From IMG/VR virus record IMGVR_UViG_3300044724_006087, positions 1 to 57,533 of that record: a stretch of DNA of 57,533 nucleotides. One strand, given 5' to 3'. Position numbers and translations under genes: made by a program. The DNA is from a virus. Its lineage: Duplodnaviria > Caudoviricetes. The notes under the pieces are model-generated. The model did not search any database. It was given only the letters and a program-made list of their open reading frames with translations, and was not told where the DNA came from. Of the stretch, positions 42,816-50,753 are shown piece by piece. The number at the start of each line of letters is the position of its first letter. The stretch's first letter is position 1.

Positions 42816-45800
42816 ATGGGAAATCCTTTAAAAATTAAAGAAACAGTTGGTGGTACCTTTCTTGGTTTACAAGAAATGCAAACCACTGAGATGGACTATG
42901 CCGTCCATCAGATTCTAACTGAGTTCTCAACTTCACTAACCGGATCAGGTACTATCAATATAAATGGTGATGGTACATCAATGGGATCCTTTTCGGACAC
43001 CACAAGAACAGGATCAGTAGGCGATCACCCAGTCGACTCTACTGCATTCTCAACATCGACTTATACACTTAAGCAAAATTTAGAATCGGTCGCAGAAACA
43101 TCGATGATCAACCCATTGTTTCTTAATGACAGTGGTTATGCTGCAGAGCATAGTAATAACCTGAATAGTACTCTAATAAGTAGAGCATTATCTAACCTTG
43201 TATCCAACGGCCTTGGATCATATTATCTTTCTGAATCAAACCCCAACACAAGCCTTTATTCAGATAGTGGATATTCTATTTTAGATACTAACAAAGCAGG
43301 TACAACCACATTTAAGTTATGGAGAAAAACAACCGGTGTTTCTGCACCTTCTACTGTTCGTACAGCACAAATTTATAACAACAGTAGTATACAAGAAATG
43401 TCTGATGCAGACATCAAAACATTAGCAGCAAGACTACGTAACCAAATTGTAGCAACTGGAATAGGCCAGTATAAACTATCTGCATCAAATCCAGCTGGTG
43501 CTGGCGAGACATGGATCCAAGTTGGATCAACAGTTACAGATACTAGAAACACAGTATCACAACAAACATACAGTGCAACCTATGAAGGCGTGTTTAATAA
43601 AACATATGCTGGATTATATGAAGGCGTATACAATAAACAATACTTAGCTCAGTATGAAGGCTCATTTGATAAAAATTATACTAAAACTTACCTAGGACAA
43701 TACGAAGCAGTATATCAAAAAGCATATGTTGGTCAATATGGAACAACATTTATTGGCCATTACAATAAACAATACGAAGGTGTTTTTAATAAGCAATATG
43801 AAGGAGCTTTTGAAGGAGTATACACTGGAGTATATGTAAAACAATATCAAGGACAGTATGAAGGAAATTATTTAAAATCATACTTAGGACAGTATGGTCA
43901 ACAATTTGAAGGATCTTTTGATAAACAATATGAAGGGGTCTATGAAGGATATTTTAACGCAGTATATTCAAGACAATTTACAGGTGCTTATACAAAAACA
44001 TACCTAGGTCAATATGAAGGAACATTTGAAGGTGCTTTCAATAAACAATACGAAGGAGTTTTTGAAGGTTACTATAACAAAACATATGAAGGCGTTTATA
44101 CTGGAACATATGTAAAAACTTACTTAGGTGAATATCAAAAAGAATATTCTGGTGAGTATGTAAAAACATATACTGGTGTATATGTAAAACAATATGTTGG
44201 TCAATATGAGGACGTATACCTTAAAACTTATCTTGGCCAATATGATAACGTATATGAAGGTTCTTTTGATAAACAATATGAAGGTGTTTATACAGGACAG
44301 TATACAAAAACATACGTAGGTCAATATACAGGTCAATATACCAAATCATATGTAGGTCAATATGAAGGTCAGTTCGAAGGTGCTTTTGATAAACAATACG
44401 AAGGAATTTACGAAGGATACTATAATAAAGCATATGAAGGAAACTTCTTAGGTCAATACACTAAAGCATATGAAGGTTCTTTTACAAAACAATTTGAAGG
44501 TGCGTTTGAAGGAGTATATGCAGGAGTATATGTCAAACAATATATTGGCCAATACGAAGATGTATATTTAAAAACTTACGTTGGACAATATGGTAGACAA
44601 TTTGAAGGTGCTTTCGATAAACAATACGAAGGATCTTTTGAAGGTTACTATAACAAAACATATGAAGGAATTTATGTAGGCGTATATACAAAACAGTATA
44701 TGGGATTATATACTGGAACTTTCTTAGGACAATATGATAATATCTATGAAGGAACATTTGATAAAGCATACTTAGGAAATTATACTAAAACATATACAGG
44801 ACAATACAGTAGACAATTTGAAGGGGTCTTTACTAAACAGTACGAAGGCAACTATGTAAAGAGTTATGATGGTCAATATGAAGGATTGTTTACAGGTGAC
44901 TTTAGTGGTACTGCAGCATTTACAGGAGTGTATGCAGGAAACTACTCAGGAACATATACAAAAAATTATATAAAAACATACGCTGGATCATATGAAGGAA
45001 CATATGATGGTTCAAGAACCTACACAGGTCAATATGCTGCACAATACCAGAAAGCATATATTGGAAACTGGACAAAGACTTATCTAGGTCAGTACACAAA
45101 ACAATGGACCGGAACAAGAACTTATACAGGACAATACTCTCAAAATTTTGATAAAATTTATCTTGGTATAAACTACACAAGACAATACCTTAAACAATAT
45201 GCTGGCGAAAGAACCTACAATGCTCAATACACTGGCCAATATACAAAAACATATACCGGTGTTTATACTAAATCATATGTAGGTCAATACAGTCAACAGT
45301 TTGAAGGTGCTTTCAATAAACAGTACGAAGGAGTATTTGAAGGCTATTATACAAAAAATTATGAAGGAGTATATCTAGGAAATTACACCAAAGCATATGT
45401 TGGTCAATATGACAGACTGTTTATTAAAACATATATTGGAACGTATCAACAAGCGTATACTGGTAACTATACAAGACATTACCTAAAAGCATACACAGGA
45501 ATTTATTTAAGAAATTTCTTAAAACAATATGTTGGTCAATATACAAAACATTATACTAAAGCATATCAAAAAGCATATCAGAAACAGTGGACAGGTGTTT
45601 ATGAAAGAATCTATTCTGGCCAATATGCAACTAACTACTTAAAGGCATATCAGAAAGCATGGGTAGGTCAATATGACAGAGTATGGACTGGCGTATACAA
45701 TACAAACTATGCTAAGCAATATACTGGTAACTATGATAATCAATTTAGTGGAACCTATACTACAAACTACACTAAACAATATTCTACAAACTACTTACAA

Positions 45801-50753: not shown

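What the first reader, a model, noticed from the sequence alone, without database searches (positions are those of the whole stretch)
43569..50693. A readable cross-strand pairing code between tetrapeptides
Seen: number the outer units from the first unit on the left (i) and from the last bulge on the right (j); partners satisfy i+j=111. Then YTKT/YLKT/YTKS usually faces an xEGx unit (YTKT10-WEGS101, YTKT36-FEGA75, FEGA39-YTKT72, FEGY42-YTKT69, YEGS58-YTKT53, YTKT62-FEGY49, FEGA68-YTKT43, FEGA87-YTKT24, YTKT102-FEGT9). F[ND]KQ usually faces Y[TV]GQ, and YEDV faces FNRE on both occurrences. In the inner zone xxTN faces xxTN, and Gly at position 3 faces Lys/Arg/Thr. Inference: steric (Gly against a long side chain), charge (E/D against K/R) and Asn-ladder complementarity fix the register over >1000 residues, analogous to base pairing. 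This could be a programmable scaffold for protein nanowires.
Basis: partly seen in the sequence, partly recalled or inferred. Interest (0 to 1): 0.9.

Follow-up and report, generated by a model that had tools for sequence, protein, structure and literature searches.

The report
Mirror-image arms of a phage fibre
A giant tail-fibre-region protein of a marine T4-like phage has two equal arms, each over 1000 residues long, whose four-residue repeats are mirror images of each other, which suggests the chain folds back and zips onto itself, though not by the exact pairing rules first proposed.

Summary
All 9 quoted unit pairs exist at i+j=111. All 17 YTKT-type units face xEGx there; the next best of 61 offsets gives 10, and 0 of 3000 shuffles reach 17. 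The register is probably one unit off. Unbiased mutual information peaks at i+j=112, residue sum 2875, in both zones. There position 3 reads Gly:Gly and non-Gly:non-Gly, with 86% agreement in the outer zone and 97% in the inner zone, against about 50% at other offsets. This is the opposite of "Gly faces Lys".

Relatives support sum 2875. Four orthologues have equal arms (1133/1133, 1069/1069, about 1389/1383, about 1249/1244). Indels are matched at mirrored places. YTKT:xEGx is a next-neighbour effect of one 8-residue module pair multiplied by matched duplications, and it is absent from the 43%-identity homologues.

My reading is a fold-back, antiparallel fibre protein in the host-recognition gene cluster. 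Its register is kept by a mirrored Gly barcode plus preferences on the other face.

One result goes against this. AlphaFold2, run on a single sequence, folds the arm next to the centre by itself as a parallel beta-helix. The three-dimensional form is therefore open. No Pfam, PHROG or PDB relative and no paper was found.

The parts
42816..50753 (+). Whole gene, 2645 codons plus stop (protein P0001)
   Evidence: The only long ORF here. It starts 6 nt after the stop of the upstream gene.
42816..43568 (+). N-terminal non-repeat domain, residues 1-251; proposed virion-proximal anchor
   Evidence: 296 proteins match at E<=0.001 in the representative library. No Pfam, PHROG or PDB match. Its role as an anchor is inferred.
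43569..44900 (+). Left outer zone, residues 252-695, 111 tetrapeptide units rich in EG and K
   Evidence: Mirrors the right outer zone: Gly/non-Gly agreement 0.856 at i+j=112.
44901..45215 (+). Left bulge zone, residues 696-800, with four 6-residue units and one 5-residue unit
   Evidence: The same layout occurs in orthologue L005. The 6-residue units lie within 0-6 residues of the mirror position of a right-arm 6-residue unit at sum 2875 (my arithmetic on the coordinates).
45216..46967 (+). Left inner zone, residues 801-1384, 146 units rich in TN, with a 28-residue period only in 1189-1384
46968..47282 (+). Non-repeat centre, residues 1385-1489, rich in Pro, Gly and aromatics; proposed turn and distal tip
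   Evidence: pLDDT is 23-45 in the AlphaFold2 model. Its length differs among orthologues: 133 aa in L005, about 73 aa in P0036. Its role is inferred.
47283..49022 (+). Right inner zone, residues 1490-2069, 145 units
   Evidence: Gly/non-Gly agreement with the left inner zone is 0.972 over 145 pairs at i+j=147. The best mirrored segment is 807-1371 against 1504-2068.
49023..49349 (+). Right bulge zone, residues 2070-2178, with four 6-residue units and one 5-residue unit
49350..50681 (+). Right outer zone, residues 2179-2622, 111 units
50682..50750 (+). C-terminal tail, residues 2623-2645, ending in the family-wide ...LW/YxRxA motif
   Evidence: The same ending is seen in P0002-P0005, P0007, P0010, P0032, P0034-36 and others.

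Best explanation
P0001 is a giant structural (fibre-type) protein. It is encoded among the tail-fibre genes of a low-GC, marine T4-like myovirus.

Behind a 251-residue N-terminal domain lie two arms of 1133 residues each. Both are built from aromatic-x-x-x tetrapeptides and flank a 105-residue centre. The arms lie antiparallel against each other in one register: residue a faces residue 2875-a, so unit i faces unit 112-i. Most simply, the chain folds back at the centre. That would put both termini at the virion end and the variable centre at the distal tip (inferred).

The register is written in a mirror-symmetric sequence.
- On the aromatic face, position 3 is Gly opposite Gly and non-Gly (Lys, Arg, Thr) opposite non-Gly. 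This makes an aperiodic Gly barcode.
- On the other face, position 2 meets position 4 with preferences. Glu:Gln, Asp/Asn:Thr, Leu/Gln:Asn and Leu:Ala or Thr:Thr are favoured. Val:Gln and Leu:Gln are avoided.

Evolution keeps the arms matched through equal-length insertions, deletions and duplications at mirrored places, and through paired substitutions.

Shown: the mirror statistics, the covariation and the matched indels. Inferred: physical contact between the arms, fold-back within one chain, and the fibre function. Open: whether the paired arms form a flat or twisted ribbon or are wound up, and the oligomeric state.
For: Context:
- Baseplate hub and wedge genes, a DUF4815 giant protein, a fibre with a Peptidase_S74 chaperone domain and a GP38-type adhesin gene lie upstream.

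Equal arms:
- 1133/1133 in P0001 and 1069/1069 in L005.
- About 1389/1383 in P0035 and about 1249/1244 in P0036 (the arm ends are my choice).

Unique register:
- Residue sum 2875 is the top of 121 offsets in the outer and inner zones independently: 2.81 and 2.86 bits against means of 1.32 and 1.10.
- A single top peak among 601 offsets in three homologues, z 7.0, 5.3 and 3.9. Parallel-register controls give z 2.2-3.0.

Gly barcode:
- Agreement 0.856 over 111 pairs and 0.972 over 145 pairs, against 0.50-0.52 (maxima 0.67 and 0.66) at other offsets.
- L005 gives 0.847 and 0.938.
- Best mirrored segment scores are 133, 213 and 172. The second-best scores are 33, 32 and 26, and the best parallel scores are 43, 39 and 43.

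Compensating indels, P0035 against P0036:
- Totals are 140 residues on the left and 139 on the right.
- Matched events include 32 aa at 980 with 32 aa at 2353, 16 at 1157 with 16 at 2190, and 4 at 1191 with 4 at 2172.
- Cumulative lengths are within 1 residue at 9 of the 11 checkpoints out to 1100 residues from the outer end, and 5 apart at 600.
- L005 lacks 16 units in each inner zone relative to P0001.

Matched internal duplications:
- The same offsets occur in both arms: 28, 52, 80, 96, 116, 192, 232, 425 and 465 residues.

Covariation:
- Ungapped outer zones of P0001 and L005: odds ratio 4.74, p 1.9e-5 at 2875 (19 double changes among 333 pairs). The other 12 shifts give at most 2.54.
- P0035 against P0036: odds ratio 2.62 at shift 0 and 3.18 at shift -2 (p about 6e-9). 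The next best antiparallel shift gives 1.96, and the best within-arm lag gives 1.63.
- Three of the double changes swap Thr:Thr with Leu:Ala.

Pair preferences recur in three homologues.
Against: - AlphaFold2 without an alignment does not build an inter-arm hairpin. Residues 1185-1384 alone fold confidently (pLDDT 85.9, pTM 0.73) into a right-handed parallel beta-helix like SufB/SufD (Z 13.7, rmsd 3.4 A, 193 of 200 residues). The model has corners at the Gly residues and 28 residues per coil. The 509-residue model shows the same pattern in its left arm.
- The orthologues are few, four full-length, and related. The pairwise tests share sequences and the counts are inflated by internal duplications.
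- Alignments of P0001 to the 43%-identity homologues are ambiguous in the repeats. About half of the partner columns were inconsistent and were dropped.
- Registers 2875 and 2873 are not cleanly separated in the P0035/P0036 comparison.
- If fully extended, each arm would span roughly 370 nm (my estimate, 0.33 nm per residue), which is very long for a phage fibre.
- In 33 more distant family members the Gly-barcode test shows nothing above the parallel control.
- No expression or virion data were examined.
Confidence: 0.72

Rival explanations
1. This is a flat two-stranded hairpin in register i+j=111. In it Gly at position 3 sits against Lys, Arg or Thr, Glu/Asp pairs with Lys/Arg, and xxTN forms Asn ladders. 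Together these would give a general, programmable tetrapeptide pairing code.
For: - 17 of 17 YTKT-type units face xEGx.
- 18 of 20 xxTN units face xxTN.
- YEDV:FNRE occurs in 2 of 2 cases, which puts Asp opposite Arg only in this register.
- xxTN:xxTN is the top offset, weakly, in P0035 (5 pairs) and P0036 (4 pairs) at the equivalent register.
Against: - Mutual information at this register is ordinary in the outer zone: 0.82 bits, z 0.08.
- There is no covariation at this register: odds ratio 1.20, and 0.8-1.4 for position 3.
- The mirror offset i+j=113 shows the same Gly:Lys excess, 33+32 pairs. That is expected if isolated Lys units simply flank a Gly:Gly / Lys:Lys register at 112.
- YTKT:xEGx is absent from P0035 and P0036.
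- The 17 cases are essentially copies of one module pair.
Confidence: 0.07
2. The paired arms are not a flat ribbon. The fold-back hairpin is wound into a two-start beta-solenoid, or is otherwise bent, at the coincident Gly:Gly sites. Left-arm and right-arm coils would then alternate along the axis. This is a variant of the best explanation for the three-dimensional form.
For: - It reconciles the mirror register with the AlphaFold2 solenoid, whose corners fall on the Gly residues.
- It explains why Gly must face Gly: both strands would bend together.
- It gives a fibre of roughly 40 nm instead of roughly 370 nm (my estimate).
Against: - A constant coil length is seen only next to the centre, at lag 28 in 1189-1384 and 1490-1690. 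The outer zones show only the 116- and 232-residue duplication lags, and their Gly pattern has no short period.
- No covariation is seen at shift +28 or -28, with odds ratios 1.10 and 1.33.
- No model of this kind was produced by any tool.
Confidence: 0.2
3. Each arm forms its own single-start parallel beta-helix, as AlphaFold2 draws it. The arms do not pair strand to strand. The mirror symmetry would reflect some looser constraint, such as two solenoids lying side by side.
For: - Confident AlphaFold2 models of the left arm alone and within the 509-residue piece.
- A strong match to solved beta-helices.
- A 28-residue sequence period near the centre.
- Asn, Thr and Gln positions that could stack as ladders (from the sequence).
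Against: - It does not explain residue-level mirror agreement of 97%, matched 4-residue indels at mirrored sites, or covariation that is strongest with the mirrored partner more than 1000 residues away. The antiparallel odds ratios are 2.6-4.7, against 1.37 for the within-arm lag of 28.
- There is no short period over most of the arms.
- The models used no alignment. From recall, not checked here, AlphaFold is known to give confident solenoids for repetitive sequences.
Confidence: 0.08
4. The arms pair antiparallel, but between different chains. This would be a head-to-tail dimer or a higher assembly with no fold-back within a chain.
For: All sequence statistics (mirror register, covariation, matched indels) are equally satisfied by inter-chain pairing.
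Against: - A bipolar rod with anchor domains at both ends is unlike known phage fibres (general knowledge).
- The exact equality of the arms around a compact, variable centre is what a turn predicts.
- The family-wide conserved N-terminal domain and C-terminal motif would naturally meet in a fold-back (inference).
Confidence: 0.08
5. It is an artefact. Repetitive composition or internal periodicity alone would give an apparent palindrome.
For: The commonest 7-unit motif has a Gly pattern (xGxGxGx) that is itself palindromic, so periodic stretches match at several offsets. Secondary mirrored segments occur at sums 2875+28 and 2875-28.
Against: - The true register beats these secondary matches 133 to 33, because the irregularities are themselves mirrored.
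- 0 of 3000 shuffles reach the observed counts.
- Parallel controls are flat.
- Covariation and matched indels cannot come from composition.
- A DNA inverted repeat cannot give a protein palindrome (genetic code).
Confidence: 0.01

Closest known systems
Needle (tip) region of the phage T4 long tail fibre protein gp37. Passages of PMC12143355 mention a 'gp37 needle domain'.
   Same: It is a phage fibre in which each chain runs out to the tip and returns. Outgoing and returning beta-strands lie antiparallel, and the receptor-binding part sits at the turn. The window's gene lies in the tail-fibre gene region of a T4-like phage.
   Different: - No sequence relation: no Pfam or PHROG fibre family matches P0001.
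- The arms here are about ten times longer.
- They are built from strict aromatic tetrapeptides with a mirrored Gly barcode.
- No His-metal sites are evident.
- A trimeric state is not established.
Right-handed parallel beta-helices: the SufB/SufD core, phage tailspikes and pectate-lyase-like folds.
   Same: The AlphaFold2 models of the centre-proximal arm superpose on them. The best match is 9h78_B, Z 13.7, rmsd 3.4 A, over 193 of 200 residues. Many of the lower matches are phage tailspikes or fibres.
   Different: - Sequence identity is only 3-9% in the listed matches.
- The model comes from a single sequence.
- The constant coil period it needs exists only near the centre.
- This fold does not account for the mirror relation between the arms.
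RNA hairpin stems (an analogy for the evolutionary signature, not a relative).
   Same: The two halves are kept in register by compensating substitutions and by matched insertions and deletions on the two sides.
   Different: - The partners are mostly alike (Gly:Gly, Thr:Thr) or loosely complementary (Leu:Ala, Glu:Gln), not a strict complement.
- Local specificity is low.
- Contact is inferred, not shown.
An uncharacterised family of giant marine-phage proteins. Members include the 3347-aa hypothetical protein of Kyanoviridae phage C48C1 (OQ984149.1).
   Same: They share the N-terminal domain and the C-terminal ...TLYVRVA ending. They also have aromatic-periodic repeats and the same gene neighbourhood of fibre and chaperone genes.
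   Different: - Most members have irregular repeats or inserted globular domains, such as FG-GAP.
- They show no detectable Gly-barcode mirror.
- The regular two-arm form was found in only four full-length orthologues plus fragments.

Membership tests
Giant marine-myovirus fibre-region protein family (unnamed; P0002-P0034, P0035, P0036, L005) | Homologous N-terminal domain of about 250 aa | tested here: met
   phmmer with residues 1-251 finds 296 proteins at E<=0.001 and 36 at E<=1e-30. The domain is visibly shared with P0002-P0010.
Giant marine-myovirus fibre-region protein family (unnamed; P0002-P0034, P0035, P0036, L005) | C-terminal motif ...T(L/I)(K/Y)LW/YxRxA at the very end | tested here: met
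   P0001 ends IKLWLRVA. Relatives end TLYVRVA, TLYVRIA, TLWVRTA and similar.
Giant marine-myovirus fibre-region protein family (unnamed; P0002-P0034, P0035, P0036, L005) | Position among tail-fibre or host-recognition genes of a T4-like phage | tested here: met
   In the window and in C48C1, where fibre and assembly-chaperone genes flank the gene.
T4 gp37-type long tail fibre | Sequence membership (Pfam or PHROG fibre families) | tested here: not met
   Pfam gives 0 families. PHROGs gives only a 5.3e-05 match to a head-morphogenesis family over 80 residues.
T4 gp37-type long tail fibre | Chain folds back so that out-going and returning strands pair | tested here: inconclusive
   The mirror register, matched indels and covariation support it. 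The AlphaFold2 models do not show it.
T4 gp37-type long tail fibre | Homotrimer | not testable with these tools
   No usable result was obtained; see Tried and rejected.
Right-handed parallel beta-helix (solenoid) | Three-dimensional similarity to solved members | tested here: met
   For the AlphaFold2 models only: Z 13.7 and Z 11.6. Foldseek against PDB found nothing at E<=0.001.
Right-handed parallel beta-helix (solenoid) | A constant coil-length period along the repeat region | tested here: not met
   Lag 28 is found only in 1189-1384 and 1490-1690. The outer zones show lags 116 and 232 only, and their Gly pattern has no short period.
Right-handed parallel beta-helix (solenoid) | Coupled evolution of residues one coil apart | tested here: not met
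   The within-arm lag of 28 gives odds ratio 1.37, inside the 1.0-1.6 background of other lags. The mirrored partner gives 2.6-3.2.
Pentapeptide-repeat and other catalogued short-repeat families | Repeat length and a Pfam match | tested here: not met
   The period is 4, in 557 of 574 segments. There is no Pfam family.

The most novel reading that the evidence does not exclude
This would be a natural 'protein palindrome'. A single chain has two arms of more than 1000 residues each that zip together antiparallel in one register. The register is set by an aperiodic mirrored Gly/non-Gly barcode plus side-chain pair preferences. It is maintained in evolution by compensating indels, matched duplications and paired substitutions. 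That would be a protein counterpart of an RNA stem. It would also be a previously undescribed architecture for the host-recognition fibres of abundant marine T4-like phages.
Probability: 0.55. Interest if true: 0.9.

Novelty: new variant of a known kind. Interest (0 to 1): 0.8.

Why it matters
If the arms really pair, this is the longest sequence-registered beta pairing known to me. It would also be a rare case where long-range contacts in a protein can be read directly from mirror symmetry, matched indels and covariation.

It would define a new fibre architecture in the host-recognition gene cluster of marine T4-like phages. Tail-fibre proteins in those phages have been hard to identify, according to passages of PMC7029224.

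It would also give protein designers a natural rule set for keeping long beta-ribbons in register: Gly opposite Gly, and size- and polarity-matched pairs on the other face.

The specific 'code' first proposed should not be used as it stands. It is shifted by one unit and rests largely on one duplicated module pair.

Tried and rejected
1. Using the AlphaFold2 model as support for the hairpin. I first read the strand ends and breaks of the 509-residue model as giving residue sum 507, which equals 2875. I withdraw this. The left arm alone folds the same way, the breaks follow a 28-residue period and sit on Gly, and the fold is a parallel beta-helix.

2. Homotrimer test. Complex prediction with three copies of residues 1270-1600 gave no verdict, score 0.00. 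It is not evidence either way.

3. Foldseek. Against PDB there was nothing at E<=0.001. Against BFVD there were 4 hits at E<=0.001, but with TM at most 0.14 and rmsd above 20 A, so they are not meaningful.

4. The ESM Atlas on residues 1-700 gave only unnamed viral clusters with scores at or below 0.79.

5. Searches on the N-terminal domain. The word-indexed search on residues 1-260 found nothing. PDB, Pfam and PHROGs gave nothing significant for the N-terminal domain, the centre or the C-terminal 60 residues.

6. Aligning the first half against the reversed second half with BLOSUM62 does not discriminate. Forward scores are as high or higher in 10 of 11 proteins.

7. Gly-barcode mirror test outside the close orthologues. 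There was no signal above the parallel control in P0002-P0004, in P0038 or in 33 further family proteins.

8. Constant-register scan of the upstream protein P0038. It is uninformative because of the protein's many bulges.

9. Literature. Seven full-text searches found no paper on aromatic tetrapeptide repeats, mirrored arms or giant hairpins in phage fibres. I read only matched passages of PMC7029224 and PMC12143355. Supplementary files were not opened.

10. Rows dropped. In the covariation tests I dropped pairs whose partner columns did not align to each other: 79 of 295, 135 of 264 and 120 of 235. I also dropped aromatic positions.
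Full report
WHAT IS THERE

The finding lies inside one ORF, 42816..50753 on the + strand, of 2645 codons. The window has the tight gene packing of a phage. It encodes baseplate hub and wedge proteins, a 2306-aa DUF4815 protein, a 1278-aa fibre with a Peptidase_S74 chaperone domain and a 1188-aa protein with a GP38 adhesin domain. All of these lie upstream of the gene.

The baseplate wedge protein is only 35-39% identical to those of known T4-like phages of Sinorhizobium, Caulobacter and Synechococcus. 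GC content is about 34%. Passages of PMC7029224 describe a variable 'host recognition cluster' with tail-fibre genes downstream of the VrlC gene in marine pelagi- and cyanomyophages. I assume, but did not test, that the window's DUF4815 protein corresponds to that VrlC.

ANATOMY

The protein divides as follows.
- Residues 1-251 are non-repetitive.
- From residue 252 to 2622, 557 of 574 segments between aromatic residues are exactly four residues long.
- The left arm is 252-1384 and the right arm is 1490-2622, each 1133 residues. They flank a 105-residue centre rich in Pro, Gly and aromatic residues.
- Each arm has four 6-residue units and one 5-residue unit, clustered 444-543 residues from the left outer end and 449-552 residues from the right outer end.

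CHECK OF THE OBSERVATION

At i+j=111:
- All 17 Y[TL]K[TS] units face an xEGx unit. The next best of 61 offsets gives 10. No shuffle out of 3000 reaches 17, whether single units or blocks of four units are shuffled.
- F[ND]KQ:Y[TV]GQ holds for 6 of 8 units, although another offset gives 5.
- xxTN:xxTN holds for 18 pairs, with 20 such units per arm. The next best offset gives 9.

THE REGISTER

- The peaks are at i+j=112 in the outer zone and 147 in the inner zone. The value at 111 is ordinary.
- At residue level both zones, analysed separately, peak at the same residue sum, 2875. There position 1 meets 1, 2 meets 4, 3 meets 3 and 4 meets 2.
- At that register position 3 is Gly:Gly in 55 and Lys:Lys/Arg in 32 of 111 outer pairs.
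- Gly/non-Gly agreement is 85.6% in the outer zone and 97.2% in the inner zone. Other offsets give about 50%, with maxima of 67% and 66%.
That is expected when isolated Lys units flank a like-with-like register at 112.

The 17 YTKT:xEGx cases are essentially one eight-residue module pair. YTKT-YxGQ lies opposite xEGx-F(N/D)Kx. This pair has been multiplied by duplications that occur with the same offsets in both arms: 28, 52, 80, 96, 116, 192, 232, 425 and 465 residues.

RELATIVES

One annotated phage, Kyanoviridae phage C48C1, has a 3347-aa 'hypothetical protein' of the same family. A protein search gave 32 distant relatives. All of the relatives that I read in full share the N-terminal domain and the ...TLYVRVA ending. 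That domain alone finds 296 proteins, most of them fragments.

Scans of viral and metagenome contigs gave close full-length orthologues:
- P0035, 3134 aa. L011 encodes a protein of the same length that gave identical scan results.
- P0036, 2838 aa.
- L005, 2544 aa.

Their arms are again equal. L005 has 1069/1069 with the same bulge layout, and it has 16 fewer units in each inner zone than P0001. P0035 has about 1389/1383 and P0036 about 1249/1244.

In each of P0001, P0035 and P0036 a scan of 601 antiparallel offsets has one outstanding peak next to 'left start plus right end'. The z values are 7.0, 5.3 and 3.9. Parallel controls have none. The best mirrored Gly-barcode segments score 133, 213, 172 and, in L005, 107. 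The runners-up score at most 33, and the parallel matches at most 47.

COMPENSATING CHANGES

Between P0035 and P0036 (63% identity) the left arm differs by 140 residues of indels and the right arm by 139.
- Individual events are matched at mirrored places: 32 with 32, 16 with 16, 4 with 4, and 12+12+8 with 32.
- Cumulative lengths are within 1 residue at 9 of the 11 checkpoints out to 1100 residues, and 5 apart at 600.

Substitutions co-vary with the mirrored partner.
- All 19 double changes there join position 2 with position 4. Three of them swap Thr:Thr with Leu:Ala.
- Between P0035 and P0036 the coupling is 2.62 at shift 0 and 3.18 at shift -2. It is at most 1.96 at any other antiparallel shift and at most 1.63 at any within-arm lag, including 1.37 at lag 28. 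Position-specific tests agree.

Pair preferences recur in all three proteins.
- Gly:Gly, Lys:Thr, Glu:Gln, Gln:Asn and Leu:Asn are favoured.
- Asp:Thr and Asn:Thr are favoured in P0001 and P0035.
- Gly:Lys, Gly:Thr, Val:Gln and Leu:Gln are avoided.

By contrast YTKT:xEGx does not recur in P0035 or P0036, and xxTN:xxTN recurs only weakly.

STRUCTURE PREDICTION

A 509-residue piece around the centre, run through AlphaFold2 without an alignment, gave arms at pLDDT 80-87 and a centre below 30. A control showed that this is not a hairpin. The left 200 residues alone fold just as confidently (pLDDT 85.9, pTM 0.73). They form a right-handed parallel beta-helix like SufB/SufD (Z 13.7; Z 11.6 for the large model). 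The corners fall on the Gly residues every 28 residues.

This counts against a flat hairpin, at least in that stretch. However, the 28-residue period exists only next to the centre. The outer zones have no short period. A parallel solenoid also explains none of the mirror evidence. From recall, not checked here, AlphaFold tends to give confident solenoids for repeats.

A hairpin that is itself wound up, bending at the coincident Gly:Gly sites, would reconcile both lines of evidence. It would also explain why Gly must face Gly. It needs a regular coil that most of the protein lacks, and no covariation was seen at shift +28 or -28.

INTERPRETATION

The mirror symmetry cannot come from DNA inverted repeats, composition or periodicity. 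The only explanation I can offer for a unique register, equal arms in four orthologues, mirrored indels and duplications, and covariation with a partner more than 1000 residues away is that the arms lie against each other antiparallel.

Fold-back within one chain is the simplest reading. In it the termini sit at the virion end and the variable centre at the tip. Inter-chain pairing is not excluded.

So the 'code' exists only in a weaker and different form from the one proposed. It consists of a mirrored Gly barcode plus moderate pair preferences.

COMPARISON AND NOVELTY

Nothing in Pfam, PHROGs, PDB sequences, Foldseek against PDB or BFVD, or seven literature searches describes this protein. 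The nearest concept is the fold-back needle of T4 gp37, which I recall and did not test. I file the protein as a new variant of a known kind, the phage fibre. The bolder reading, a register-coded protein palindrome, has about even odds.

Noticed in passing
window 39244-42810 (+), protein P0038; also L007, L012, L014, L015, L016: The upstream gene also has aromatic-x-x-x units over about 870 residues, followed by a GP38-type adhesin domain. In P0038 itself the mirrored Gly pattern is no better than the parallel control, 11 against 12. In five homologues the best mirrored segment joins residues about 35-150 with about 480-880 and exceeds the control: 23 against 17, 21 against 13, 18 against 9, 17 against 10 and 16 against 13. 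It may be a second, shorter fold-back protein.
   Followed up: partly
window 45159-45173 and 49179-49193 (residues 782-786 YLGIN and 2122-2126 YVSVN): The two 5-residue units are not opposite each other. At sum 2875 they face regular units about 30 residues away. The same crossed arrangement is kept in L005, P0035 and P0036. It implies a one-residue register slip over the stretch between them. I have no explanation.
   Followed up: no
P0035 and P0036 (L002 2348-11752; L004 12872-21388): Besides shifts 0 and -2, covariation between the arms shows a secondary signal at shift -12, three units: odds ratio 1.96, p 5.5e-5. It may be alignment slippage in 12-residue periodic stretches or a second contact. 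Unexplained.
   Followed up: no
window 42816-43568 (residues 1-251): The N-terminal domain defines a large uncatalogued family: 296 hits at E<=0.001 among 1.84 billion representatives, mostly short contig-end fragments. There is no Pfam, PHROG or PDB match. Pfam PF23786 'Baseplate_wedge' touches two distant relatives just below its cut-off.
   Followed up: partly
distant relatives P0003, P0004, P0008 (not in the window): Some family members carry inserted globular modules inside or before the repeat region. Examples are FG-GAP repeats (PF14312) and PF13385. The C48C1-type proteins have several non-repeat islands between the repeat blocks. This suggests the repeat scaffold displays variable binding domains.
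   Followed up: no
window 46380-46967 and 47283-47885 (residues about 1189-1384 and 1490-1690): Only the stretches next to the centre have a clear 28-residue (7-unit) period: identity 0.46-0.49 at lag 28. Closest to the centre the Gly pattern changes to every third unit.
   Followed up: partly
window 27934-34854 (+): A 2306-aa protein with DUF4815 (E 1.4e-49) and PHROG 358 (E 6e-281), function unknown, lies between the baseplate wedge genes and the fibre genes.
   Followed up: no
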